From Candidatus Colwellbacteria bacterium (GTDB lineage: Bacteria > Patescibacteriota > Minisyncoccia > UBA6257 > Colwellbacteraceae): a stretch of 64,000 nucleotides of DNA. Shown here in pieces: positions 4,739 through 44,832 of the stretch (its first letter is position 1; every line of letters starts with the position of its first letter). The notes beneath the pieces were generated by a model. The model saw nothing but the letters and a program-made list of their open reading frames with translations, searched no databases and was not told where the DNA came from. Made by a program: the position numbers and the translations under genes. The stretch lies in assembly GCA_030700125.1 (NCBI GenBank), contig JAUYKE010000021.1, positions 2,492 to 66,491 on the forward strand, given 5' to 3'.

Positions 4739-5944
4739 TTATTCAACCGCCACCGGAGGCTCTCCAATTGACGTGGCCTGCCCCGGCGGCGTCTTCGAGG
4801 TAAGTTTAAGAATAATCCTTTTTTCATCGGGCTTAACGGAGTCAATCAGAAACTCGTAGGATTTGCCCGGCTCGAGATTTTTCTTTAATTCCTCCACCGA
4901 GCCAAACTCGGAGACATGAATCAGTCCCATAATATCCTGGTCAAGCTTAATAAAAGCGCCGAAAGGATTAAGTTTGTGAACGATTCCATGCACCGTCACT
5001 CCTTCCTTGAAACGTTCACTCACTTTCTCCCAGGGGTTTGGTTGGAGAGTTTTGATTGAAAGGGATACTCGGCCGTCTTTGATCTCAATAATTTTGGCTT
5101 GAACCATATCGCCGATTGCCACTACTTCCTTAGGGTGGTCAATTATATTATGGCTTAGTTCAGAGATGTGAATCAGTCCTTCGATTTCGGGATTGTCGGC
5201 AAAACGGGCAAAAGCGCCGAAATTAGCCACCCCGGAGATAATCCCCGAAACAACTTGCCCTACCGAATACTGGACTAAGAGTTCCTTCACATTCTCGGTT
5301 ACCACTTCTCTCTCGGAAACTATTAATTTATTGTTTCGCGGATTGACGTTAATGATCTTTACCGTGAGTTCGGTGCCGATGAACTGATTCAGGGTCTCTA
5401 GTATCTTCTGGCGATTGCCGTCGGCGTTTTGAGGATAATGCTCGTTGGAGAGTTGAGAGGCCGGTAAAAAGGCCTGAAGACCGGCAATGGCGGAAATCAA
5501 CCCGCCGGTATTAGCCGCCGTAATCTGAACTTTAATCGGTTCTCCCTGATCCTTTAGTTCTTTGACTTCCTGCCAAGCCTTCTGTTTGCCTGCTTCGGTC
5601 AAAGATAATTCTACAAACCCCTCGTCGTTTTCCGGGGCAAGCACCTTAGCGGTTACGACCTCGCCGATCTCAAGTTTTTTTAGAATTCCTTTGGCATTTA
5701 AAAATTCCACTCCATAGACAATACCGGTTCCGATTTTGGGAATTTCAAAATAGGCCGCCCGGCCGCCCCTCTCCATTAGGGAAACATCAACAAGATCGCC
5801 TTCCTTAAGAAGAATCATGAGCGAGGGGTTCGCTTTGAGCATTTGCAGTTCTAGATGATTACCGTTCTTTTGCATTGCTTGGAGATTATAGAGAAATGGA
5901 TTTGTGTCTGCAAGTTTCAGAAGCTTGTCGAAAGCCCCAATCAT
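4739..5944 (-). CDS. S1 RNA-binding domain protein (ribosomal protein S1-like, ~4 S1 repeats)
   Basis: Repeated S1-domain signatures (G.V.G.V..F.L......GLIH.SE). Confidence 0.75.
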   Translation of the reverse strand: MIGAFDKLLKLADTNPFLYNLQAMQKNGNHLELQMLKANPSLMILLKEGDLVDVSLMERGGRAAYFEIPKIGTGIVYGVEFLNAKGILKKLEIGEVVTAKVLAPENDEGFVELSLTEAGKQKAWQEVKELKDQGEPIKVQITAANTGGLISAIAGLQAFLPASQLSNEHYPQNADGNRQKILETLNQFIGTELTVKIINVNPRNNKLIVSEREVVTENVKELLVQYSVGQVVSGIISGVANFGAFARFADNPEIEGLIHISELSHNIIDHPKEVVAIGDMVQAKIIEIKDGRVSLSIKTLQPNPWEKVSERFKEGVTVHGIVHKLNPFGAFIKLDQDIMGLIHVSEFGSVEELKKNLEPGKSYEFLIDSVKPDEKRIILKLTSKTPPGQATSIGEPPVAVE

Positions 5945-6531: not shown

Positions 6532-8942
6532 ACAGAGGAGGCAAAATTGAGCCGAGAGAAATTACCGCGGAGTTGCGCGAGTCCTATTTGGATTATGCGA
6601 TGTCGGTTATCGTCGGTCGCGCCTTGCCCGACGTTCGAGACGGCCTAAAACCGGTTCACCGCCGGATTTTATGGGCAATGCAGGAGCTGGGATTAACTGC
6701 CGGCAGCAAATTTATGAAGTCCGCAAGAGTGGTTGGTGAAACTATGGGTAAATTCCATCCGCACGGGGATGCGGCGGTCTACGACGCCTTGGTAAGAATG
6801 GCCCAGCCGTTCTCATTACGTTATCCGCTTATTACCGGACAAGGAAATTTTGGGAGTGTTGATGGGGATGGAGCTGCGGCACAAAGGTATACCGAGGTAA
6901 AATTATCTCCAATCGCCGAAGAGCTTTTAACCGATATTGATAAAGATACCGTTGATTTCGCCCCTAACTACGACGACTCTCGCAAAGAGCCGGTAGTAAT
7001 GCCGGCCAAATTCCCCAATCTCTTAGTGAACGGTTCCGAGGGAATTGCCGTAGGAATGGCGACTAAAATTCCGCCCCACAACCTAAGCGAGGTAATTAAC
7101 GCCAGCATCCACTTGATTGATAGTCCGAAAGCTACCGCCGAGGAGCTAATGGGGTTTGTCCAAGGACCGGACTTTCCCACCGGCGGGATAATTTACGACC
7201 GGAAGGCAATTGTCGAGGCCTACATTTCCGGCCGGGGTAGTGTCACATGCCGAGCTACGGTTGAGGTTGAAGAGAAAAGAATCGTTATTAGCGAAATTCC
7301 TTACCAGGTTAACAAATCCGAACTTATCATACGGATGGCCGAGCTTGTCCAGGAGAAGCGAATTGAAGGGATTAGGGATCTTCGAGATGAATCCGATAAA
7401 GATGGATTGCGAATTACGATTGATCTGAAGTCCGATTCCGTCCCGGAAAAAGTATTAAACCAGCTCTGGCGGCATACCGACCTCCAGAAGGACTACCATC
7501 TAAACATGGTGGCCCTAGCTGAAGGGCTCCAACCCCAGACAATGTCCATTCGGGACGTTCTCTTGGGTTTTGTTCTACACCGCAAGGAAGTCGTCACTCG
7601 CCGAACCAAGTTTGAACTAAAGCGAGCCGAAGAGCGGGCCCATATTTTAGAGGGACTAGCCAAGGCCTTATCTCAAATTGATAAAGTGATTGCCGCCATT
7701 AAAAAATCGGCTGATAGAGCCGAGGCCCACACGAATTTAATAAAGCAGTTTGATTTAAGTGACCGCCAGGCAACGGCCATATTAGAAATGCGGCTCCAAA
7801 CCTTGGCGGCTCTCGAGCGGCAAAAGATTGCGGATGAGTTAAAAGAGAAACTCCAATTAATTAAGGACTTGAAGCTTCTTTTGAAGAGTCCGGAAAAAAT
7901 TCTGGGAATCATCAAAAGAGAATTGAAAGAACTTGATAGCCGTTTTGGCGACGAGCGCCGCACCAAATTGAAGGTCGGCGCGTTGAAAGAGTTGGCGGAT
8001 GAAGACATGATTCCTCAAGAAGAGGCGATTATCACGCAGACCCACGACGGCTACATTAAGCGTCTGCCCCCCGGAACTTTCAAGCATCAGCGGCGAGGAG
8101 GCAAAGGCGTGAAAGGTGGAATCACCAATGAAGCTGATGTTTTGACGCACTTCATCGGCGCCCATACCCACGATGATATTCTCTTCTTTACCGACAAAGG
8201 ACGTGTTTTTCAAACAAAAGTCTACGAAATCCCGTCCGCTTCGCGCGTGAGCAAAGGTCAGATGATTCATAATTTCTTGGGTATTCCAGCCAACGAAAAG
8301 GTTAGCGCTATTGTAGCTTACGGCAGCGAAGAGAAGAAAAACAACCCTTATTTAGTGATTGTCACCGCCGGCGGAGTAATAAAGAAAACCGGGCTTGATA
8401 AATTTGAGAATGTCCGGCGAAGCGGCATCCTCGCCGTGAACCTTAGTAAAGGAGATGAACTGAAGTGGGCCAAGCTCGCCGGGCCCAAGGACGAGATTGT
8501 GATGACTACCGCGGCAGGCCGGGCAATCAGATTTAAGGGAGGGGACGTAAGAGCTATGGGGAGGACGGCCGGAGGTGTCAGGGGCATCACTTTGAAAAAA
8601 GACGACAGAGTCAGTTCCTTTGACTTGGTGGCACCGATGAAAGCTGCGAGGTTCCTCACGGTGATGGTAAATGGATACGCTAAGCAAACCCCGCTTAAGG
8701 AATACAAGCTTCAGCGGCGCGGCGGTCAGGGGATTTTAACCGCCAAAGTGACCAGCAAAACCGGTCAAGTAGTTTCAGCTCATGTTATAATTGAACAGAC
8801 TGAACTGTTAGCGCTTTCAGCCAAGGGATTGGTGTTGCGCACAAGCATTAAAAGTATTAGATCTGCCGGCCGAGCCACCCAAGGAGTGCGTATCATGAAG
8901 CTCGGCGCCGGCGATAAAATTATCGGAACAGTTTGTCTTTAG
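6507..8942 (+). CDS. gyrA: DNA gyrase subunit A
   Basis: N-terminus ...[33 protein letters not shown] near-identical to canonical GyrA; 811 aa with C-terminal beta-pinwheel repeats. Confidence 0.95.
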
Positions 8943-8999
8943 ACATCAGACAACAGTAATCAGACATCAGAAGCCCCAATTACTAATAACTATTAATTA

Positions 9000-18404: not shown

Positions 18405-18460
18405 AAAAGAAGACGCCCTCGTTTTGCTCTTCGGGGTTTGTCATTTGGTGCTTGTGATTT

Positions 18461-19543
18461 GTGATTTTCCAAAACTGTCCACAGTTTTGGTGTGCTATCA
18501 TTAACCTAATGAATGGAGAGAATAAGCCGATAGGGCCGGCACCTTTGCCCGACAATACACCTTCACCATTTGGCGGACCGCCTACGCCACCCCCGCCACC
18601 GTCATCGGGGTCAAGTAGATCTACCCCAGCCGGAGCGTCGGGACCTCCGCCTCCGCCTCAAATTGATATTAGGACCATGGCCAGTGATAGAGAATCACTC
18701 CAGCGGAGCGGCGGCCTCGGCACCGAACCAAAAACTTTCAGCCCGGCTGATCTGTCCAAAGAGCCAGTCTTCAATACAGGGATTACATCCCCTGCCGGCG
18801 TTGTCGAAAAAGGTGCGGGTGGTAAGAAAATAGGGATAGCAGTCGGCGCTATTGCCATTCTCGCCCTCGCCGGCGCTATCGGTTATTACCTTGTTTGGCC
18901 CAACTTTTCCGGCAAAGAAGAGCCACAAGTTACTAAAGTCACTCCTCCGGCACTTCTTCCCGCCGAACCAACCCCACCCGCCCCAACTTCTCAAAGCTTC
19001 TTCACTAAGCCAGCGGCTAGCACTGAGCAGATAAACTTAAGTACCTTAACGCTTGCGGAGCTCTCTGGTGCTTTGAAGACTCAACCGGGAGAAGAATCAA
19101 TGGCTGCCGGAACAGTTAAAGAAGTTATTTTGAAAGTTAATAATGCCTCGGCGACCTCTTCAGCCCTACTTAATGTTCTCGTTCCGGGAACCGGTCTTGA
19201 ATCAATGCTTGAGTCAGGCGCTACGAACTTCGTCTATTACGACGCTAAAGGAGCTTGGCCCGGCTACGTCTTCAAGCTTAAAAGCGGCACCAACCCTGCT
19301 GCCGCCCAAACATCAACCGCAAAAATAGAGCAGTCAACAAGTCTCGCCGCTCTCTACCTAGCGAGTCCTGGCACGGCAAGCACGGGTGGTTTTAAGAACG
19401 GCTCTGCCGGCGCAATAAAGACTCGCTACCTCTCCTTCGCTAGCGGCGCCTCATTTAATTACGGCTGGGTCAATAATTACTTAGTGATAAGTACTTCTTT
19501 CGACGGCTTCAAGAAAGCGGCTGCATTACTGCCATCCCAATAG
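18461..19543 (+). CDS. hypothetical proline-rich membrane-anchored protein (start uncertain, possibly Met17 at ~18509)
   Basis: PPTPPPPPSSG low-complexity N-region, one TM, ~200 aa extracytoplasmic domain. Confidence 0.5.
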   Translation: MIFQNCPQFWCAIINLMNGENKPIGPAPLPDNTPSPFGGPPTPPPPPSSGSSRSTPAGASGPPPPPQIDIRTMASDRESLQRSGGLGTEPKTFSPADLSKEPVFNTGITSPAGVVEKGAGGKKIGIAVGAIAILALAGAIGYYLVWPNFSGKEEPQVTKVTPPALLPAEPTPPAPTSQSFFTKPAASTEQINLSTLTLAELSGALKTQPGEESMAAGTVKEVILKVNNASATSSALLNVLVPGTGLESMLESGATNFVYYDAKGAWPGYVFKLKSGTNPAAAQTSTAKIEQSTSLAALYLASPGTASTGGFKNGSAGAIKTRYLSFASGASFNYGWVNNYLVISTSFDGFKKAAALLPSQ

Positions 19544-27174: not shown

Positions 27175-27852
27175 ATGTCGTCCTACGAAGTAGAGATTAA
27201 GTGTCTTTTGGGAGGGAAAGAAAGCGCTGACGGCTTGCTCGCGCGCATGAAAGAAAAAGATCCCGGCCTGCAGCAGGTAAGCTCTCACAAACAGCTAAAT
27301 CATTATTTTATGGGCGGCGACCTGAATCAGCTTTATGAAAACATTGCCCCACTTCTTAAAGAAGAAGAGAAAGAGGCCATCCAGGCCCTTCTCAAAAATG
27401 CAAAAAACTTCTCCCTAAGAACTAGGCAGGCCGATGAAAAGGTGATTCTGGTGCTTAAGGTTTCGGTGGACGAGGGGACGAGCGCCAATACCGTCGGCCG
27501 TATTGAATTTGAAGCAGAAACCCCAAAATTATCTTTGGAAGAACTGGACCAACTGGTGCTCAAATCCGGCCTTGAGTACCAAGCCAAGTGGTCCCGGGAA
27601 CGAACCGAGTATAAATATCTTGGAGCCAATGCCACAATCGATAAAAACGCCGGCTACGGCTACCTAGCTGAATTTGAAAAAATAATTAATGACGAAGCTA
27701 AGGTGGCTGAAGTAAAAACCCAGTTGAGAAAGATAGTTAACGAACTCTCGCTGGAAGAGCTGGATCAGGCGCGCCTTGAGCGGATGTTCGCATATTATAA
27801 CGCCAACTGGCAGGACTATTATGGAACCGATAAAGTTTTTGTAGTGGAATGA
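27175..27852 (+). CDS. CYTH-domain protein (triphosphate tunnel metalloenzyme)
   Basis: N-terminal EVEIK (ExExK) signature and acidic patches. Confidence 0.6.
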   Translation: MSSYEVEIKCLLGGKESADGLLARMKEKDPGLQQVSSHKQLNHYFMGGDLNQLYENIAPLLKEEEKEAIQALLKNAKNFSLRTRQADEKVILVLKVSVDEGTSANTVGRIEFEAETPKLSLEELDQLVLKSGLEYQAKWSRERTEYKYLGANATIDKNAGYGYLAEFEKIINDEAKVAEVKTQLRKIVNELSLEELDQARLERMFAYYNANWQDYYGTDKVFVVE

Positions 27853-28859
27853 TGGTTCGACAAAGCTCACCACAGGCGGATCACCCGGAGTATCAATATT
27901 TAAATCTCCTAAAAGAGATCATTGCCGATGGTGTGAAAAATGTTGACCGCGGCACAGGGATGGCTTCATATAGCTTATTCGGCAGACAAACCCGGTACGA
28001 CTTATCAAAAGGGTTCCCGCTTCTAACGACGAAAAAAACCTACTGGCACGGGATTCTGCATGAGCTTTATTGGTTCTTGTCCGGCCAAACAAATATTAAA
28101 TATCTAATTGATAATAACGTCCATATTTGGGACGACTATCCTTACAAGATTTATAAAAAGAAGGCTAAGGGAGCGGATATAAAAGAGCTAAGCAAGGAAG
28201 AGTTTATCAATAAAATCGCGACTGATGCTAAGTTTGCTAAGGAGCACGGAGAACTACCTCGAATTTACGGAGAGATGTGGCGCAAGTGGCCCACTCGTAC
28301 ACCGGGCCGCACTATCGATCAGCTAAAGTGGGTAATTGATGAGATTAAGGAAGACCCATACGCCAGAAATGCGATAGTCACTTCTTGGAATCCGGAATAT
28401 CTCTACACAATGGCAACTCGTGAAGATACGAGCTACTTCCCAATTTGCCACAACATGTACCAGATTAGTGTTAAAGACGGCAAGTTATCCCTACAACTCT
28501 ATCAAAGAAGCGCCGATATGTTTTTGGGAGTACCGTTCAATATTGCGAGCTACGCTCTCTTAACTCATATTCTAGCTCGCGTGACCGGATACGAGCCGGG
28601 AGATTTTATCCACACTTTTGGCGATGTTCATATCTACGAAAATCATCTAGAGCAATCAAAGGAGCAGATCACTCGCGAGCCAAGACCTCTCCCCTCTTTA
28701 AAAATTAATCCATCAGTGAGAAGCTTTGACGACTTTAGGCCGGAGCACGTGATTCTCGAAGGATATGACCCTCACCCGCCAATTAAAGGAGATTTTACAG
28801 TCGCCGGCGGCTTTTATGAATCAGAAACAGCTAGACAGAATCTAGAATTTAGAAAATAG
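27849..28859 (+). CDS. thyA: thymidylate synthase (ThyA)
   Basis: …SWNPEYLYTMA…FPICHNMYQISV…LYQRSADMFLGVPFNIASYALLTHILA core motifs; ATGA overlap with upstream gene. Confidence 0.9.
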   Translation: MMVRQSSPQADHPEYQYLNLLKEIIADGVKNVDRGTGMASYSLFGRQTRYDLSKGFPLLTTKKTYWHGILHELYWFLSGQTNIKYLIDNNVHIWDDYPYKIYKKKAKGADIKELSKEEFINKIATDAKFAKEHGELPRIYGEMWRKWPTRTPGRTIDQLKWVIDEIKEDPYARNAIVTSWNPEYLYTMATREDTSYFPICHNMYQISVKDGKLSLQLYQRSADMFLGVPFNIASYALLTHILARVTGYEPGDFIHTFGDVHIYENHLEQSKEQITREPRPLPSLKINPSVRSFDDFRPEHVILEGYDPHPPIKGDFTVAGGFYESETARQNLEFRK

Positions 28860-28872
28860 AATCTAGAATATT
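28838..28872. repeat. TCTAGAAAATAGAA-type repeat block, copy 1 (overlaps thyA stop, upstream of folA)
   Basis: gaatctagaatttagaaaatagaatctagaatatt; related copies at 30022 and 30597. Confidence 0.6.
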
Positions 28873-28875
28873 GTA

Positions 28876-29367
28876 ATGCGACCGAAAGTCTCTATCATTG
28901 CTGCTATCTCTGAAAATGGAGCGATTGGAAAAGATAATCAGCTTTTATGGCACATTCCAGGGGACATGCGCCGCTTCAAGGAACTGACCACGGGCCACGT
29001 GGTCATCATGGGTCGAAAGACATATGAGACAATCGGAAAACCGCTTCCGAATCGAACCAATATCATCCTTACAAGGGATAAAAACTACAGCGCCCCTGAC
29101 TGCCTTGTAGTCCCCTCTTTGGAAGAGGCCCTAGAGAAAGCTAAAGAGATAGAAAACGACGAAATCTTCATTATGGGCGGCGGGGAGATTTACCGTCAGG
29201 CGATCGGCAAAGCCCACAAGCTTTATCTCACCTTGGTCCACCAGAATTTTGAAGGAGATGTTTTCTTCCCTGATCATTCGCAATTTAAAAAGGAGGTCTT
29301 TCGCGAAGAAGGCGAATCCGCTAACGGACTCAAATTCACTTTCCTGGAACTTGAAAAGTTGCTATAG
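28876..29367 (+). CDS. folA: dihydrofolate reductase
   Basis: ISENGAIGKDNQLLWHIPGDMRRFKELTTGHVVIMGRKTYE…IMGGGEIY. Confidence 0.9.
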   Translation: MRPKVSIIAAISENGAIGKDNQLLWHIPGDMRRFKELTTGHVVIMGRKTYETIGKPLPNRTNIILTRDKNYSAPDCLVVPSLEEALEKAKEIENDEIFIMGGGEIYRQAIGKAHKLYLTLVHQNFEGDVFFPDHSQFKKEVFREEGESANGLKFTFLELEKLL

Positions 29368-29371
29368 CTCA

Positions 29372-29411
29372 CTACTAAACAAATTCCGCGATCGCGGAAT
29401 TTGTTTAGTAG
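29372..29411. terminator. 40-nt perfect palindromic hairpin (CTACTAAACAAATTCCGCGATCGCGGAATTTGTTTAGTAG) between convergent folA and dcd; bidirectional terminator
   Basis: Seen directly. Confidence 0.65.
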
Positions 29412-29414
29412 ATG

Positions 29415-30008
29415 TCATTTTCCCTTCTTTATTTCTTGCTTAACTTCTTTTCCGAGCTTGGAGGCATCGGCGTTCTTCGCCCCGGCGTATTTGGCGCCCT
29501 TCTTTTTGGAATAAGGCACCTCTACTTTGCTAGAAACCTCCTCAAAAGTGAAGGCGCAGATTCTCATTCCCGGATAAAGCGTCACTGGCATCACTCCTAA
29601 ATTCCCGAGCTCCATCGTTGGTTTGCCGTCCCAGCCAGGATCAAAAAGCCCGGCGGTGCTGTGGACAATAATTCCCAGTCGCCCCAGCGAACTTCTGCCC
29701 TCAATCCGACCGGCAATGTCCGAGGCGAGCTTCAAGCGCTCGACCGTGGTGGCAATGGCAAAATCCCCCGGTTGAAGAATAAAGGGCTTCCCCTTGGGTA
29801 TCACGACTTCTTCCATAATGCTTGCCACATCAACATCGCCCATTAAATCAATGAAAGGATGAGTCGAATGTTTAAAGACACGGAAACGGTTTCCCAAATG
29901 AAAATCAATGGAGCAGGAGCCCAGCTGCTTTGAATAATCCGGTTTGGGGGTGATTTTTATTCTGCCTGAAGCGATGGCTTTTTTGATGTCCCTGTCAGAG
30001 AGAACCAT
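29415..30008 (-). CDS. dcd: dCTP deaminase
   Basis: MVLSDRDIKKAIASGRIKI… dUTPase-fold dCTP deaminase signature. Confidence 0.85.
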   Translation of the reverse strand: MVLSDRDIKKAIASGRIKITPKPDYSKQLGSCSIDFHLGNRFRVFKHSTHPFIDLMGDVDVASIMEEVVIPKGKPFILQPGDFAIATTVERLKLASDIAGRIEGRSSLGRLGIIVHSTAGLFDPGWDGKPTMELGNLGVMPVTLYPGMRICAFTFEEVSSKVEVPYSKKKGAKYAGAKNADASKLGKEVKQEIKKGK

Positions 30009-30021
30009 GGACCAATTGTAG

Positions 30022-30049
30022 CTAGAAAATGGAATCTAGAAAATAGAAG
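30022..30049. repeat. TCTAGAAAATAGAA-type repeat block, copy 2 (between divergent dcd and GC-rich ORF)
   Basis: ctagaaaatggaatctagaaaatagaag. Confidence 0.6.
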
Positions 30050-30123
30050 ACTGCTTTACGAGAAGAAACGAATGTGGTAAACGTGAGGGCTGTACCGTAA
30101 CACAATTTTGAGGAGGAACAACT

Positions 30124-30543
30124 ATGTCGGGAGTCAGTGGAGCAAGTCTCTTCCGTAACAAATTGAGGGAGAGAGGATTGCTCCCCGTTCAGATCGCAGC
30201 AAAACCAGTTCCCATCAGTGCCCTCGAGCTTGTCCCCATCTGCGGGGACGACGAACTCTGGATCTCCGGCGAGGATCTGCTGATGCGAGCTCGGGAAGTC
30301 GAGGCTGATTTCGGCCAAGATCAGATCGAGTACATGTTGGAACGCCGCGATGAGTTTCCGGAAGAATGGGGGATCATCTCCTTCCTTCTCTTTCCAGACG
30401 TAGTCAGGAGAGACCAGCCCGGGAACCTGTATTTCCCCTTCATCTACTGGAACGGGGAGTGGAATCTGGAGTTCTGCTTACTCGATAGTCGTCACCCCCC
30501 GAGTGGGCGACTGGTCCGGCGTCGTAAGCGTCCACGCGAGTAG
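30124..30543 (+). CDS. GC-rich orphan hypothetical protein (139 aa, W/F-rich, Arg-rich tail)
   Basis: Strong GAGGAGG SD 8 nt upstream; followed by compound hairpin terminator (~30556-30592); GC content clearly above that of flanking nucleotide-metabolism genes. Confidence 0.55.
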   Translation: MSGVSGASLFRNKLRERGLLPVQIAAKPVPISALELVPICGDDELWISGEDLLMRAREVEADFGQDQIEYMLERRDEFPEEWGIISFLLFPDVVRRDQPGNLYFPFIYWNGEWNLEFCLLDSRHPPSGRLVRRRKRPRE

Positions 30544-30596
30544 CTGAACCCTCAACCGAAGCCCGTCCCGATGCACTGTCATCGGGCGGGCTTCTC

Positions 30597-30635
30597 TACT
30601 TCTAGATTCTATTTTCTACTTTCTAGATTTTTGCT
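30597..30635. repeat. TCTAGAAAATAGAA-type repeat block, copy 3 (inverted relative to copy 2; upstream of glyA)
   Basis: tacttctagattctattttctactttctagattttt. Confidence 0.6.
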
Positions 30636-30646
30636 ATTCTTGACCC

Positions 30647-31903
30647 ATGGCTTTTCGCGACCCGATTTTAGAGAATTTAATAAAAAAGGAAATTAAGCGG
30701 CAAAGGGAGACCTTGGCTTTAATCCCTTCTGAAAATTTCGCTCCCCTAGAAACGCTGAAAATTTTAGGTACTCCTCTATCCAATAAATACTCCGAAGGGT
30801 ATCCCGGAAAGCGCTATTATCCCGGTAATTTTTATTACGATAAAATTGAAACTCTTGCCCAGAAGCGAGCTTTAAAAGTTTTTGGTTTAGATCCAAGAAA
30901 ATGGCACGTGAATGTTCAGCCCTATTCCGGTTCGCCGGGAAACCTCGCAGTTTATTTTGCCTTGGCAGAACCGGGCGAAACGATTATGGGGATGAAGCTT
31001 GCCGATGGCGGACACCTCACTCACGGGCATAAAGTTTCGGCTACCGGAAAATTTTGGAAGAGTGTTCAGTTTGGCATCAATCCTAAAACGGGATTGATTA
31101 ACTACGCTGAGGTGGCAAAGCTGGCAAGGAAACATAGGCCCAAAGTTATTGTTTCAGGATTTACCGCTTATCCCAGAAAAGTTAATTTCAAAAAATTCGG
31201 CGAGATTGCAAAGAGTGTCGGGGCATATCACCTAACCGATATCTCTCACATTGCGGGGCTCATAGCCGGCGGAGTGCATCCTGCGCCTTTTCCCCACGCC
31301 GACGTGGTAATGACTACCACTCACAAATCACTCCGAGGACCCAGGGGAGCTATTCTTTTTATTAATCGGGCGTCCCCCGTCGCAAAGAAAAACAAAGTTG
31401 ACCTCCCGGCTTTAATTGACAGGGCAGTTTTCCCGGGTCTCCAAGGCGGGCCACATAATAACACCACCGCCGCCATGGCAATGGCCTTTTTGGAAGCCAG
31501 TCAGCCCTCTTTTAAGGCTTATGCCAGGCAAATCGCTAAAAACGCAAAAGCCCTCGCGGCAGAGCTTAAGCAACTGGGCTTTAATCTGGTAAGCGGAGGA
31601 ACAGACAGCCATCTTATTCTCATGGATGTGAGAAACTTTGGCCTTGACGGCATGGAGGCGGAAAAACAACTAGAGAAAGCAGGTATTATTGCTAACAGAA
31701 ATTCGGTTCCCGGAGATCCTTCACCTTTTAAACCCTCCGGCATAAGAATGGGAACGCCGGCTCTCACTTCGCGCGGGATGAAAGAAAAAGAAATGGTTGA
31801 AGTGGCACGACTCATCCATCAAGCGCTCCACAAAAAGGCGGGAGCAAAAGCAGCTGTCTTAAAGCTCTGTCGTAAATTCCCGGCCAGAAGATTTTTAGGA
31901 TAA
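30647..31903 (+). CDS. glyA: serine hydroxymethyltransferase
   Basis: …LIPSENF…SNKYSEGYPGKRYY…TTTHKSLRGPRG (PLP-Lys region). Confidence 0.95.
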   Translation: MAFRDPILENLIKKEIKRQRETLALIPSENFAPLETLKILGTPLSNKYSEGYPGKRYYPGNFYYDKIETLAQKRALKVFGLDPRKWHVNVQPYSGSPGNLAVYFALAEPGETIMGMKLADGGHLTHGHKVSATGKFWKSVQFGINPKTGLINYAEVAKLARKHRPKVIVSGFTAYPRKVNFKKFGEIAKSVGAYHLTDISHIAGLIAGGVHPAPFPHADVVMTTTHKSLRGPRGAILFINRASPVAKKNKVDLPALIDRAVFPGLQGGPHNNTTAAMAMAFLEASQPSFKAYARQIAKNAKALAAELKQLGFNLVSGGTDSHLILMDVRNFGLDGMEAEKQLEKAGIIANRNSVPGDPSPFKPSGIRMGTPALTSRGMKEKEMVEVARLIHQALHKKAGAKAAVLKLCRKFPARRFLG

Positions 31904-32265
31904 TGCCAAAAGAAAAGAGGTTAGCTAAAGGCTTTGGAGCTGCCCTCGACGGCTTTAGAGAAACTATCCTCTACGAAAAAAGCTTTAAGGTGATGCTAGT
32001 TATCGCTGCCGTTGTTGTCGCAGCTATGTTCTATTTTCCCACCGGCCCTCTTGAAAAAGTAGTGCTTCTCGCTGCGATCTTTGCTGTTTTGGTGCTTGAG
32101 CTTTTGAACTCTGTCGTTGAACGAGTAATGGATTTTTTGTCGCCGGAATACAATGAGCAGGCAAGAATAGTAAAGGACTTAATGGCCGCCATCGTGTTTT
32201 CGGCTTCCGTCGGCGCCGTTATTATTGGATTAATGATTTTCGTCCCTTATATACTAAGTTGGTGA
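31903..32265 (+). CDS. dgkA: diacylglycerol kinase family protein (DgkA/undecaprenol kinase-like)
   Basis: 120 aa, 3 TM, ELLNSVVE motif. Confidence 0.7.
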   Translation: MPKEKRLAKGFGAALDGFRETILYEKSFKVMLVIAAVVVAAMFYFPTGPLEKVVLLAAIFAVLVLELLNSVVERVMDFLSPEYNEQARIVKDLMAAIVFSASVGAVIIGLMIFVPYILSW

Positions 32266-33074
32266 AAATAGACGGTCATTCTATCTCGAAAGAGATAATC
32301 GAACATCTTAAAAAATTACCAAAACCGGAAAAGATTTTTGCGGCCATTCTTGTCGGTGATGATCCCCGTTCAGCCAGTTTTCTAAAACAAAAGGAACGGG
32401 TGGCTAAAGAGCTGGGAGTTGATTTCCGGCTCTATAATCTACGGGCTGAACTTGGCAATGACGGTTTGCGGCAGGAGGTAAGGCGGCTCGTGGGAAAAAA
32501 CCCGGTCGGCGGAACCGTTTTCCAGCTGCCTCTTCCGCAAGGACTCAATCCCCACTATGTTTTGAATGCCATTCCGCGCAAGAAGGACGTTGATGTCTTG
32601 ACCGAGCGAGCACTAGGCGCCCTTTACAATGGCCGAAATCCGGTTTTTCCTCCGGCAGTCGCGACTGTAAAAACTATTTTAGAAAAAGTTAATTTTGACT
32701 TAGAGAAAGCAGAAGTAGCAGTAGTCGGGCTGGGTAATTTGGTAGGTAAGCCGGTTAGTGTCTGGCTCACAAGAAAGTGTAAAAACCTCTTTTTATTGAG
32801 GAGGGGCAGCGATTTGGAATTGCTTAAGCGGGCGGATCTTATTATTACTGGAGTCGGCCAGGCAGGACTCATTAAATCAGATATGCTAAAATCCGGCGCA
32901 GGCGTTATCGACTTCGGATATTATTATTCTCCCGATGGCGAAGTGTCCGGCGATTTTTCGGCGGAAGATGGGGGAAAACTAAGTTTTTACACCCCCACGC
33001 CGGGAGGCACAGGCCCGATTTTAGTAGCCGAGCTGTTTCGTAATTTTTATATTTTGAATAGTCAAGAAAGATGA
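32259..33074 (+). CDS. folD: bifunctional methylenetetrahydrofolate dehydrogenase/cyclohydrolase
   Basis: AAILVGDDPRSASFLKQKERVAKELG…VVGLGNLVGKPVSVWL… typical FolD. Confidence 0.8.
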   Translation: MVKIDGHSISKEIIEHLKKLPKPEKIFAAILVGDDPRSASFLKQKERVAKELGVDFRLYNLRAELGNDGLRQEVRRLVGKNPVGGTVFQLPLPQGLNPHYVLNAIPRKKDVDVLTERALGALYNGRNPVFPPAVATVKTILEKVNFDLEKAEVAVVGLGNLVGKPVSVWLTRKCKNLFLLRRGSDLELLKRADLIITGVGQAGLIKSDMLKSGAGVIDFGYYYSPDGEVSGDFSAEDGGKLSFYTPTPGGTGPILVAELFRNFYILNSQER

Positions 33075-44556: not shown

Positions 44557-44832
44557 ATGAAGAAATCAGAATTAGCAGAAGCAGTAATGTCTAAAGCTAG
44601 CCTTGAGTCCAAGCGTCAAGCCGAGGCCGTTGTTGATGCAGTTTTCGACACCATTACTAAGGCCATGAGCCAAGGTGAGGATGTTGCCATTACAGGTTTC
44701 GGTACCTTTAGAGTAAGGAAGAGAGCGGCAAAGATCGGTATTAACCCGAGAACCGGAGAAAAACTTCAGGTTCCGGCAAAAACTGTTCCTAAATTCTCAG
44801 CTGGCAAGGCCCTAAAAGAGGCCGTCGCCTAG
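44557..44832 (+). CDS. hup: DNA-binding protein HU
   Basis: 91 aa; …GFGTFRVRKRAAKIGINPRTGEKLQVPA… HU/IHF signature. Confidence 0.9.
   Translation: MKKSELAEAVMSKASLESKRQAEAVVDAVFDTITKAMSQGEDVAITGFGTFRVRKRAAKIGINPRTGEKLQVPAKTVPKFSAGKALKEAVA

What the first reader, a model, noticed from the sequence alone, without database searches (positions are those of the whole stretch)
28838..30635. TCTAGAAAATAGAA-type repeat upstream of folA, dcd and glyA; inverted copies flank a GC-rich orphan ORF
Three blocks of 28-39 bp built from TCTAGAA(A)AT(A/G)GAA units occur within 1.8 kb and nowhere else in the window. Copy 1 is at the thyA stop, upstream of folA. Copy 2 lies between divergent dcd and a GC-rich 139-aa orphan gene. 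Copy 3, in inverted orientation, is just upstream of glyA. Copies 2 and 3 therefore form ~30-bp imperfect inverted repeats bracketing the GC-rich ORF and its terminator (30022-30635, ~610 bp), which is MITE/TIR-like. Alternatively, the palindromic XbaI-like cores could be operators of a common regulator of the thymidylate/one-carbon genes (thyA, folA, dcd, glyA, folD are clustered here).
Basis: seen in the sequence. Interest (0 to 1): 0.55.

Follow-up and report, generated by a model that had tools for sequence, protein, structure and literature searches.

The report
TAGAA heptad-repeat arrays at gene boundaries
The three repeat blocks are real: each is four tandem 7-base units (nnTAGAA), a little-understood type of intergenic repeat that in other candidate-phyla bacteria flanks small four-helix-bundle genes, so they are neither a classic transposon nor a demonstrated thymidylate-specific operator.

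Summary
Three blocks, each of four contiguous heptads nnTAGAA, lie at 28841-28868 (+), 30021-30048 (+) and 30600-30627 (-). There are no others in the 64 kb, and shuffles give none at 17 or more of 20 core matches.

They sit on the start boundaries of folA, dcd and glyA. None of these three has a Shine-Dalgarno sequence, and each has a -10-like hexamer exactly 6 nt before its ATG, which suggests leaderless mRNAs.

The GC-rich "orphan" is a conserved gene of a larger unnamed family (591 profile hits). It is syntenic in every genus-level relative, so it is not a recent MITE insertion.

The arrays themselves turn over. C1 is an insertion specific to this lineage. C2 is present or absent between strains. 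C3 is replaced by ATTTG-type heptads in sister species, yet the 62 nt before the glyA ATG are invariant in five strains whose 4-fold sites are 65% polymorphic.

Four-copy period-7 arrays are strongly over-represented in Patescibacteria DNA. TAGAA arrays occur in at least 120 metagenome contigs next to unrelated genes. Inverted heptad arrays bracket PF05635 four-helix-bundle genes on both sides in 13 of 14 distinct loci.

Best reading: a selected, probably protein-bound, gene-boundary/promoter element of the heptanucleotide-repeat class. Its function is unproven.

The parts
28841..28868 (+). C1: heptad array TCTAGAA TTTAGAA AATAGAA TCTAGAA. Degenerate heptads extend it to 28834-28875. It contains the thyA stop codon (28857-28859).
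   Evidence: It is absent from L004 and L005, where thyA ends at ...GGF and folA follows within 0-3 nt. C1 is therefore a lineage-specific insertion of about 55 nt that adds 16 residues to ThyA.
28864..28869 (+). -10-like hexamer TAGAAT, 6 nt before the folA ATG (28876). There is no SD.
   Evidence: Read directly from the sequence. TANNNT hexamers peak at a spacing of 6 nt before start codons in this window.
30021..30048 (+). C2: heptad array GCTAGAA AATGGAA TCTAGAA AATAGAA, between the divergent dcd and orphan-family genes.
   Evidence: Relatives L084, L086, L004 and L006 keep it with point changes and 4-5 heptads. L005, L085, L002 and L003 lack it.
30015..30020 (-). -10-like hexamer TACAAT, 6 nt before the dcd ATG (30008) and abutting C2. 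There is no SD.
30071..30103 (+). Conserved box AATGTGGTAAAyGTGAGGGCTGTACCGTAACAC upstream of the orphan's SD (GAGGAGG, 30110-30116).
   Evidence: Conserved in all genus-level relatives, although the protein is only 63-79% identical. No Rfam match.
30124..30543 (+). GC-rich 139-aa gene (the 'orphan'), a member of an unnamed family of about 100-residue domains.
   Evidence: There are 9 close homologues, all syntenic. Substitution patterns fit a coding sequence. A profile search gives 591 hits at E<=1e-3. No Pfam or PDB match.
30558..30594 (+). Intrinsic-terminator-like hairpin after the orphan gene.
   Evidence: Fold energy -29.2 kcal/mol for 30550-30612. The stem is conserved across relatives and differs at a few positions between them.
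30600..30627 (-). C3: heptad array, on the - strand TCTAGAA AGTAGAA AATAGAA TCTAGAA. It is the inverted partner of both C1 and C2.
   Evidence: Together with the rest of the 62 nt before the glyA ATG it is invariant in the window, L084, L085, L005 and L006, while 34 of 52 4-fold sites in glyA segregate. It is 28/28 identical to an array in the unrelated contig L205.
30635..30640 (+). -10-like hexamer TATTCT, 6 nt before the glyA ATG (30647). There is no SD.
   Evidence: In L001 and L208 a -10-like hexamer sits exactly 6 nt before the glyA ATG despite different heptads upstream; in L086 and L004 the spacing is less clear.
27849..33074 (.). Thymidylate/one-carbon gene cluster: thyA 27849-28859 (+), folA 28876-29367 (+), dcd 29415-30008 (-), glyA 30647-31903 (+), dgkA 31903-32265 (+), folD 32259-33074 (+).
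   Evidence: Pfam.

Best explanation
The three blocks are copies of one cis-element: a TAGAA-class heptad array of four contiguous 7-bp units.

It belongs to the widespread but functionally unsolved class of intergenic heptanucleotide tandem repeats. These sit at gene boundaries, typically right before SD-less start codons.

In this Patescibacteria genome the arrays lie on or directly upstream of the -10 region of three probably leaderless transcription units: folA; dcd with the divergent orphan-family gene; and glyA-dgkA-folD.

The likely history:
- C2 and C3 came with, or formed around, an accessory gene inserted between dcd and glyA in the ancestor of the genus.
- C1 is a later inverted copy of C3, dropped between thyA and folA.

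The most likely mode of action is at the DNA level. The array would be a platform for a protein that reads one heptad per subunit, in either orientation, as the omega/ribbon-helix-helix repressors do. Binding there would affect transcription initiation of the adjacent genes.

Shown: the structure, the positions, membership of the repeat class, the evolutionary turnover and the purifying selection. Inferred: leaderless promoters, protein binding, and any co-regulation.

The confidence given (0.45) is for the whole statement including the mechanism. The class identification alone I hold at about 0.9.
For: **Structure and non-randomness.**

**Promoter context.**
- -10-like hexamers lie exactly 6 nt before the three ATGs, and none of the three genes has an SD.
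- TANNNT peaks at 6-nt spacing before start codons, and only 9 of 49 genes have an SD-like motif.

**Selection.**
- 0 of 62 sites upstream of glyA vary among five strains, whereas 34 of 52 4-fold sites in glyA do.
- C2 and its flank differ at about 3 of 60 positions between the window and L084, against about 28% at 4-fold sites.

**Class membership.**
- Four-copy arrays in 841 kb of Patescibacteria loci: 37 at period 7, against 4 at period 6, 3 at period 8 and at most 1 at periods 9-15.
- Of 47 period-7 arrays across all the loci held at that point, about 70% are intergenic although 90% of the DNA is coding, and many end 0-25 nt before a start codon.
- A published analogue exists: TAACTGA heptamers of 2-6 copies before RBS-less starts, some overlapping the end of the upstream ORF (PMC4679880).

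**Orientation independence.** 21 forward against 21 reverse relative to the nearest start. This fits DNA-level recognition better than RNA-level recognition.

**Sequence-specific conservation across genomes.**
- C3 is 28/28 identical to an array in the 60%-GC contig L205.
- L205's partner array uses C2's heptads GCTAGAA, AATGGAA and AATAGAA.
- L226 uses TCTAGAA TTTAGAA, as C1 does.
Against: - No binding protein was identified. No ribbon-helix-helix or PF05635 gene was found among the window ORFs that were scanned.
- Several different heptad classes occur within short distances in other small genomes (L082, L212). That is many specificities for genomes with few regulators.
- Arrays also lie between convergent gene ends, where there is no promoter (L010, L012).
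- C2 is dispensable in some strains, and C3 is replaced by ATTTG-type heptads in sister species.
- Transcription start sites are inferred from sequence only.
- Mosaic identity between the related contigs means that recombination sweeps could account for part of the apparent conservation.
Confidence: 0.45

Rival explanations
1. IVS-like or mobile cassette boundaries. Inverted heptad arrays are the ends of small gene cassettes, classically carrying a PF05635 four-helix-bundle gene. C2 and C3 would be the ends of such a cassette carrying the orphan-family gene, and C1 a solo end. The arrays would serve recombination or mobilisation, or RNase III excision of the transcript.
For: - Inverted arrays bracket PF05635 genes on both sides in 13 of 14 distinct loci. 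Nine of the 14 were found by protein homology alone.
- L205 has the same heptad set as C2 and C3, in the same frame.
- dcd and glyA are adjacent, without the gene or the arrays, in more distant relatives.
- The orphan plus the downstream spacer is 99.8-100% identical between contigs whose dcd and glyA are 85-92% identical.
- 'Empty' inverted pairs 12-60 nt apart exist (L094, L102, L188, L196).
- The predicted C2:C3 duplex is -27.5 kcal/mol and C1:C3 is -40 kcal/mol.
Against: - No recombinase, transposase or target-site duplication.
- The gene is fixed and syntenic in every genus-level relative.
- The left array is missing in some strains, and the right array differs in sister species.
- A terminator lies between the gene and C3, and there is no room for a promoter upstream of C2. 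One RNA carrying both arms is therefore unlikely.
- The mosaic identity also affects dcd and dgkA, so it looks like general recombination or assembly chimerism.
Confidence: 0.2
2. Operators of a dedicated regulator of the thymidylate cycle. One transcription factor binds the arrays before folA, dcd and glyA and co-regulates dTMP synthesis.
For: - In about 100 kb of genus-level sequence, TAGAA arrays occur only before thymidylate-cycle genes, and at four different positions in different species. These are folA, dcd and glyA in the window, and thyA and dcd in L004.
- They overlap the presumed promoters.
- C3 is under strong constraint.
Against: - All the sites lie within one 4-kb cluster, so local copying explains the pattern equally well. 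Same-unit arrays cluster locally around unrelated genes in other genomes (L072, L036, L043, L111, L212).
- The same array class precedes rplK, flanks rplV/rpsS and tmRNA, and lies next to many other genes elsewhere.
- Only 2 of 120 TAGAA contigs carry thyA-folA, and not next to the array.
- The glyA site is replaced by unrelated heptads in sister species.
- The arrays have no dyad symmetry, and no regulator was found.
Confidence: 0.12
3. An RNA-level element. The heptads are transcribed and act in the 5' leader or intercistronic RNA, as proposed for TAACTGA repeats. They would give SD-independent ribosome recruitment or re-initiation, place stop codons in all three frames, or bind a UAG-N4-type RNA-binding protein.
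For: - The arrays abut SD-less start codons.
- C1 supplies thyA's stop codon and puts TAG in all three frames 7 nt before the folA ATG.
- UAG at 7-nt spacing resembles HutP-type sites (own knowledge).
- The TAACTGA precedent (PMC4679880).
Against: - There is no orientation bias relative to the downstream gene.
- Two of the three arrays here are antisense to the gene they precede.
- If the -10 assignment is right, C2 and C3 are not in the dcd and glyA mRNAs at all.
Confidence: 0.12
4. Selectively neutral heptanucleotide microsatellites, produced by replication slippage and ectopic copying and merely tolerated in intergenic DNA.
For: - Heptanucleotide repeats are the most abundant long simple-sequence-repeat class in many prokaryotes. 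This was attributed to polymerase slippage (Mrazek 2007, as summarised in PMC4679880).
- Gain, loss, replacement and 4-versus-5 copy variation occur between relatives.
- Unit sequences are diverse.
Against: - Zero variation in 62 nt across five strains whose synonymous sites are near saturation.
- Imperfect arrays keep the same order of variant heptads in C1, C3 and the unrelated L205.
- Strong positional bias to start codons in genomes that are 90% coding.
- Systematic pairing with PF05635 genes.
Confidence: 0.08

Closest known systems
TAACTGA intergenic heptamer direct repeats of Beggiatoaceae, Cyanobacteria and Bacteroidetes (MacGregor 2015, PMC4679880)
   Same: - 7-nt unit, in sets of 2-6 copies.
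- 'Split' sets containing related heptamers.
- Mostly intergenic, ending a few nt before start codons that lack a ribosome-binding site.
- Some overlap the end of the upstream ORF.
- Found next to ribosomal-protein genes.
- The unit contains stop codons.
- Function unknown.
   Different: - The unit here is TAGAA-based.
- There is no forward-orientation bias (1 of 3 here; 21 against 21 in metagenomes).
- Inverted pairs are common and bracket small genes, whereas only one inverted set was reported in BOGUAY.
- The host is a Patescibacterium with probable leaderless promoters.
Heptanucleotide long simple sequence repeats, and the cyanobacterial STRR repeats (Mrazek 2007 as cited in PMC4679880; STRR from own knowledge)
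   Same: Tandem 7-nt units, over-represented relative to other periods, and located in intergenic DNA.
   Different: The arrays here are short (4 units) and imperfect, with a conserved order of variant heptads. They are sequence-conserved between strains and between distant genomes, which is unlike hypermutable microsatellites.
Omega repressor (ribbon-helix-helix) heptad operators of pSM19035-family plasmids (own knowledge)
   Same: Contiguous 7-bp heptads in direct or inverted orientation overlapping promoters, with one dimer per heptad. This is the only well-studied system that reads DNA with a 7-bp period.
   Different: - The omega heptad is WATCACW, not nnTAGAA.
- No RHH gene was found here.
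- Binding is untested.
- This is a 'works like' comparison only.
23S rRNA intervening sequences encoding PF05635 proteins (Leptospira, Coxiella; own knowledge)
   Same: A small ORF bracketed by inverted repeats that can form a long stem. The same protein family (PF05635) is bracketed by the same heptad arrays in 13 of 14 distinct loci examined here.
   Different: - The window's bracket holds a non-PF05635 gene.
- It lies between protein-coding genes, not inside rRNA.
- The arms are tandem heptads.
- RNase III processing is untested and, given the terminator, unlikely here.
MITEs
   Same: Roughly 600-bp unit with imperfect terminal inverted repeats of about 28 nt.
   Different: - It carries a conserved protein-coding gene with an SD and a terminator.
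- No target-site duplication.
- Not polymorphic as a unit among close relatives.
- The arms are tandem heptads shared with non-bracketing copies such as C1.

Membership tests
Intergenic heptanucleotide tandem repeats (TAACTGA/LSSR type) | Tandem copies of a 7-nt unit, including variant ('split') heptads | tested here: met
   Four contiguous nnTAGAA heptads in each block. TRF reports period 7 for C1 and C3, and period 14 for C2.
Intergenic heptanucleotide tandem repeats (TAACTGA/LSSR type) | Intergenic, ending a few nt before a start codon that lacks an RBS; may overlap the end of the upstream ORF | tested here: met
   The arrays end 7, 12 and 19 nt from the folA, dcd and glyA start codons. None of the three genes has an SD. 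C1 contains the thyA stop codon.
Intergenic heptanucleotide tandem repeats (TAACTGA/LSSR type) | Forward orientation toward the downstream start codon (as in BOGUAY) | tested here: not met
   Only C1 is forward. C2 and C3 are reverse relative to dcd and glyA. In metagenome contigs the count is 21 forward against 21 reverse.
Intergenic heptanucleotide tandem repeats (TAACTGA/LSSR type) | Many sets dispersed over the genome | not testable with these tools
   Only 64 kb of this genome is available. It holds three TAGAA sets and one AGACATC set.
MITE | Terminal inverted repeats | tested here: met
   C2/C3 are 28 nt at 79% complementarity, or 44 nt at 73%.
MITE | Target-site duplication flanking the TIRs | tested here: not met
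   The flanks are AATTGTA|GCTAG... and ...TCTAGA|TTTTTGC, with no direct duplication.
MITE | Non-coding, non-autonomous short element | tested here: not met
   It contains a conserved 139-aa gene with an SD and a terminator. Homologues are 63-79% identical, and the substitution patterns fit a coding sequence.
MITE | Presence/absence of the whole unit among close relatives | tested here: not met
   The gene is present and syntenic in all 10 genus-level protein variants looked at. It is absent only in relatives whose Dcd is 64-69% identical.
Palindromic transcription-factor operator / regulon | Dyad symmetry of the site | tested here: not met
   The blocks are direct heptads. The TCTAGA palindromes are only part of some of the heptads.
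Palindromic transcription-factor operator / regulon | Site conserved at orthologous promoters in related species | tested here: inconclusive
   The dcd site is kept in four relatives and lost in four. The glyA site is invariant within one clade and replaced by ATTTG heptads in L086, L004, L001 and L208. The folA site is unique to the window, whereas L004 has an array before thyA.
Palindromic transcription-factor operator / regulon | Motif restricted to functionally related genes; cognate regulator present | tested here: inconclusive
   The restriction holds within this genus, but all the sites are in one cluster. It does not hold across other organisms. No regulator was found in the window.
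Omega/RHH heptad operators | Two or more contiguous 7-bp heptads, direct or inverted, at a promoter | tested here: met
   Four heptads abut or overlap the -10-like hexamers. The promoters themselves are inferred.
Omega/RHH heptad operators | Heptad consensus WATCACW and a cognate RHH gene | tested here: not met
   The heptad here is nnTAGAA. No RHH domain was found in the small ORFs that were scanned.
PF05635 (23S rRNA IVS protein) cassette with inverted arms | Inverted arms able to form a long stem around one small ORF | tested here: met
   The C2:C3 duplex is -27.5 kcal/mol. The bracketed segment contains one 139-aa ORF.
PF05635 (23S rRNA IVS protein) cassette with inverted arms | The bracketed ORF is a PF05635 four-helix-bundle protein | tested here: not met
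   The orphan has no Pfam hit. An hmmsearch with a four-helix-bundle profile finds none in the window.
PF05635 (23S rRNA IVS protein) cassette with inverted arms | Excision of the RNA by RNase III | not testable with these tools
   This needs transcript-end mapping.

The most novel reading that the evidence does not exclude
Heptad arrays containing TAG are the cis sites of an unrecognised, widespread system centred on the PF05635 four-helix-bundle (Avd-like, '23S rRNA IVS') proteins. Each such gene is flanked by inverted arrays of its own heptad.

The four-helix-bundle protein would either be the trans-acting factor that reads the heptads, one subunit per 7 bp, or be the cargo of an IVS-like mobile cassette.

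Solo or re-used arrays, like the three here, would then wire housekeeping genes (the thymidylate cycle in this genome) or other accessory genes (the orphan family) into that system.
Probability: 0.2. Interest if true: 0.8.

Novelty: new variant of a known kind. Interest (0 to 1): 0.55.

Why it matters
Heptanucleotide repeats are the commonest long simple-repeat class in many bacteria, and their function has been open for decades. This case adds three things.

1. Such arrays are specifically enriched at gene starts in the tiny, regulator-poor Patescibacteria genomes.
2. One array is under strong purifying selection, so it is not junk.
3. The arrays are systematically paired, in inverted orientation, with the equally enigmatic PF05635 four-helix-bundle genes.

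Point 3 gives a concrete candidate partner to test. It could explain both what the repeats do and what the 'IVS protein' family is for.

For this locus it also implies that dTMP-cycle genes in this lineage are expressed from unusual, rapidly rewired, probably leaderless promoters.

Tried and rejected
- **Rfam.** A scan of 28700-30800 at E<=10 gave only noise hits. A scan of 20 array-bearing contigs gave only a tmRNA next to one array.
- **Structure of the orphan.** The AlphaFold2 model has mean pLDDT 46 and is unusable, so no fold search was run. A PDB profile search found nothing. Pfam finds nothing on the orphan or on its distant homologues, except a PAS-HAMP fusion.
- **Search for a regulator.** No RHH or PF05635 gene was found among the window ORFs scanned. 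The only DNA-binding domains seen were HU (44557-44832) and an HTH_25 protein.
- **Thymidylate linkage in other organisms.** Only 2 of 120 TAGAA contigs carry thyA-folA, and the array is 2-8 kb away from them.
- **Orientation bias.** Tested to detect an RNA-level role; none was found.
- **Arrays as -35 elements.** The matches are poor, so this was rejected.
- **Stop codon in every heptad.** It is common, but only modestly above expectation for AT-rich heptamers. It was judged by eye and not pursued.
- **Arrays around other orphan-family genes.** The result is inconsistent. L212 has direct CTATAAC arrays around a three-gene block, and L216-L218 have none.
- **Literature.** Searches for heptamer repeats in Patescibacteria, and for PF05635 with inverted repeats, found nothing relevant.
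- **Protein search that failed.** A seven-sequence four-helix-bundle alignment was too divergent for the locus search. A three-sequence alignment worked.

Full report
**1. The observation**

The three blocks exist where stated. Read in register, each is four contiguous 7-nt units with the core TAGAA:
- C1, 28841-28868 (+): TCTAGAA TTTAGAA AATAGAA TCTAGAA.
- C2, 30021-30048 (+): GCTAGAA AATGGAA TCTAGAA AATAGAA.
- C3, 30600-30627, read on the - strand: TCTAGAA AGTAGAA AATAGAA TCTAGAA.

A scan for 4x nnTAGAA finds exactly these three sites at 18/20 or better. Forty dinucleotide-preserving shuffles gave none at 17/20 or better.

C1 and C3 are the closest pair: 37 nt, 86% complementary. C2/C3 is 28 nt at 79%. 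An independent assembly (L087) carries C2 and C3 unchanged.

Pfam confirms the genes in order: CYTH, thyA, folA, dcd (-), an ORF with no hit, glyA, dgkA, folD. By its Dcd relatives the organism is a Patescibacterium close to Doudnabacteria.

**2. Local anatomy**

The thyA stop codon lies inside C1, and the folA ATG follows 7 nt after the array. C2 starts 12 nt from the dcd start codon. C3 ends 19 nt before the glyA ATG.

None of folA, dcd and glyA has a Shine-Dalgarno sequence. Each has a -10-like hexamer exactly 6 nt before its ATG: TAGAAT, TACAAT and TATTCT.

Across the window, TANNNT hexamers peak at this 6-nt spacing, and only 9 of 49 genes with an upstream gap have an SD-like motif. The three genes therefore look like leaderless transcription units, with the arrays lying on or immediately upstream of the -10 region. 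This step is an inference from sequence.

The orphan ORF is different. It has a strong GAGGAGG SD, a 33-nt upstream box conserved in all relatives, and a stable terminator hairpin (-29.2 kcal/mol) that ends just before C3.

**3. The 'orphan' gene**

It has nine close homologues (63-100% identity), all located between dcd and glyA. P0010 is a further syntenic relative. Its substitution patterns fit a coding sequence.

A profile search of 1.8 billion representatives finds 591 proteins at E<=1e-3. These include tandem duplications and a PAS-HAMP fusion. None has a Pfam or PDB match, and AlphaFold gave no usable model.

Family members are GC-richer than their host contigs in three of the four other contexts seen: 0.60 against 0.42, 0.57 against 0.47, and 0.32 against 0.25. 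The GC excess is therefore largely a family trait rather than proof of recent transfer.

More distant relatives (L034, L054, L057) have dcd and glyA directly adjacent and divergent, with neither the gene nor arrays. The gene therefore entered this position in the ancestor of the genus.

**4. Evolution of the arrays**

C1 is absent from L004 and L005. There thyA ends at ...GGF and folA follows within 0-3 nt. The insertion in the window extends ThyA by 16 residues.

C2 is kept, with point changes and 4-5 heptads, in L084, L086, L004 and L006. It is deleted in L005, L085, L002 and L003, even though L005/L006 and L084/L085 encode identical orphan proteins.

C3 is identical in the window, L084, L085, L005 and L006. 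In L086, L004, L001 and L208 the same position carries ATTTG-type heptads instead.

L004 has an ATTAGAC-type array directly before thyA.

The 62 nt before the glyA ATG show no variable site among five sequences, whereas 34 of 52 4-fold sites, and 95 of 390 sites overall, vary in the adjoining glyA. That is strong constraint.

One caveat applies. The related contigs are mosaics. For example, orphan plus spacer is 100% identical while dcd and glyA are 85-92% identical, and another pair has dcd at 99.8% with the orphan at 85%. Recombination or assembly chimerism could therefore contribute to the apparent conservation.

**5. The wider class**

In 841 kb of Patescibacteria loci, four-copy arrays at 80% or better self-identity number 37 at period 7. 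The counts are 13, 4 and 3 at periods 5, 6 and 8, and at most 1 at periods 9-15.

Of 47 period-7 arrays across all the loci then held, about 70% are intergenic in DNA that is 90% coding, and many end 0-25 nt before a start codon. Unit sequences differ between species. The same unit tends to recur in neighbouring spacers.

Their GC content ranges from 25 to 68%. Findings from those contigs:
- Only 12 of 146 arrays are inside ORFs.
- Orientation relative to the nearest start is 21 forward against 21 reverse.
- Neighbours include rplK, rplV/rpsS and tmRNA.
- Only two contigs carry thyA-folA, and not next to the array.

The literature has a close analogue: TAACTGA heptamers in sets of 2-6 before RBS-less starts in Beggiatoaceae, Cyanobacteria and Bacteroidetes, function unknown. 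It also records the general excess of heptanucleotide repeats (PMC4679880).

**6. The link to four-helix-bundle genes**

Seventeen of the 120 contigs have inverted TAGAA pairs. These are either 12-60 nt apart or 335-560 nt apart around a single small ORF. In L205, L096, L109 and L190 that ORF is a PF05635 '23S rRNA intervening sequence protein'.

L205's left array is 28/28 identical to C3 and contains the stop codon of the upstream gene, just as C1 does for thyA. Its right array is built from C2's heptads.

Loci that were not selected for arrays show the same bracket:
- L043: GTAGTGA-type arrays.
- L135: TAATAAC-type arrays.
- All five viral-collection loci found by protein homology alone: TGTAGGG and GAGTAGG types, in contigs of 55-68% GC.
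- Both L205-clade proteins whose contexts were looked up: P0241 between rplU and recR, with TCTAGAA TTTAGAA; and P0251, with AATAGAA x4 on both sides.

In total, 13 of 14 distinct loci have inverted arrays on both sides. The fourteenth lies at a contig end and has an array on the one side that can be seen. I found no description of this pairing. The window itself has no PF05635 gene.

**7. Interpretation**

The MITE label fails on four defining features: target-site duplication, non-coding content, polymorphism of the unit as a whole, and integrity of the arms. The underlying idea, inverted arrays bracketing an inserted gene, matches a recurrent architecture.

The palindromic-operator label fails on symmetry and on specificity outside this genus. 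Within the genus, every TAGAA array does lie before a thymidylate-cycle gene, so a local regulatory role is not excluded.

The reading I commit to is this. The blocks are TAGAA-class heptad arrays, selected cis-elements at gene-start boundaries. They most probably act on DNA as a binding platform read with a 7-bp period, in either orientation, and so influence initiation at the adjacent leaderless promoters.

The class identification I hold at about 0.9, and the mechanism at about 0.45. The rivals are cassette or IVS-like ends (0.2), a dedicated thymidylate regulon (0.12), an RNA-level element (0.12) and neutral slippage products (0.08).

**8. Novelty**

This is a new variant of a known but unexplained repeat class. 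The systematic pairing with PF05635 genes and the evidence for selection are the new elements. They make the long-standing question of what heptanucleotide repeats do experimentally approachable.

Noticed in passing
L205:2065-2468; L096:8677-9293; L109:3347-3829; L190:26-550; L043:1580-2015; L135:7423-7887; L221:2466-2879; L224:2445-2890; L226:1470-1900; L235:1430-1910: PF05635 four-helix-bundle ('23S rRNA IVS protein', Avd-like) genes are bracketed by inverted heptad arrays on both sides in 13 of 14 distinct loci. The arrays usually contain TAG and often abut the ATG with no SD. This holds across contigs of 30-68% GC and for loci chosen by protein homology alone.
   Followed up: partly
window 30071-30103: A 33-nt box (AATGTGGTAAAyGTGAGGGCTGTACCGTAACAC) upstream of the orphan's SD is conserved across all genus-level relatives, more strongly than the protein itself. 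It could be an extended -10 promoter (TGnTAAA) plus a leader element. It has no Rfam match.
   Followed up: partly
window 27175-30008 and L007-L082: A CYTH-domain gene directly precedes thyA (overlapping it, ATGATG, in this window), and CYTH-thyA-folA-dcd linkage recurs in dozens of Patescibacteria species. This suggests that the CYTH triphosphatase belongs to the dTMP pathway, for example in dUTP or dNTP hydrolysis.
   Followed up: no
window 28812-28859: The C1 insertion removed the ancestral thyA stop codon. ThyA here carries a 16-residue C-terminal extension (YESETARQNLEFRK), partly encoded by the repeat. The C-terminus is important for catalysis in thymidylate synthases (own knowledge).
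   Followed up: partly
window 8941-8971: A second heptad array with a different unit (AGACATC AGACAAC AGTAATC AGACATC AGA) lies between gyrA and a solute-binding-protein gene, about 28 nt before its ATG.
   Followed up: no
window 18430-18467 and 1768-1790; L086:2560-2600; L208:1880-1925: TTTGTGA/TTGGTGC-type heptads lie before the gene at 18461 and at 1768-1790. They resemble the ATTTG-type arrays that replace C3 upstream of glyA in sister species. TGTGATT also matches the omega-repressor heptad WGTGATW.
   Followed up: no
L084/L085, L005/L006, L085/L005 (aligned to window 29400-31100): The Hainich groundwater contigs show strongly mosaic identity. Orphan plus spacer is 99.8-100% identical while the flanking dcd and glyA are 85-92% identical. 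Another pair has dcd at 99.8% with the orphan at 85%. The breakpoints fall in the array-bearing spacers. This indicates frequent recombination between co-existing strains, or chimeric assemblies.
   Followed up: partly
P0010-P0158 (profile hits of window 30124-30540): The 'orphan' belongs to a large uncharacterised family: 591 hits, a domain of about 100 residues, and the motif LELVxF...SGEE...ANLGQ..AEYLLEHQ.EIP.EWR.YYLVFPGT.WRD. The domain is sometimes duplicated in tandem (P0012, P0013) or fused to the C-terminus of a PAS-HAMP sensor (P0109), which hints at a signalling output domain. The genes are GC-richer than their host contigs in most contexts seen.
   Followed up: partly
window 29372-29411: A perfect 18-bp-stem palindrome lies between the convergent folA and dcd genes. 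It looks like a bidirectional terminator.
   Followed up: no
L212:388-425, 2316-2348, 2530-2560, 5849-5901: In another small-genome contig, direct TAGTGAC arrays flank a nucleotidyltransferase gene pair. Direct CTATAAC arrays flank a block containing an orphan-family gene and an HATPase_c_3 gene. Heptad arrays may generally delimit accessory gene blocks.
   Followed up: no
L010:10626-10653; L012:10617-10644: In two species, TTTTAGG-type heptad arrays fill the spacer between the convergent stop codons of dcd and folA. Arrays are therefore not confined to promoters. This unit gives stop codons on both strands.
   Followed up: no
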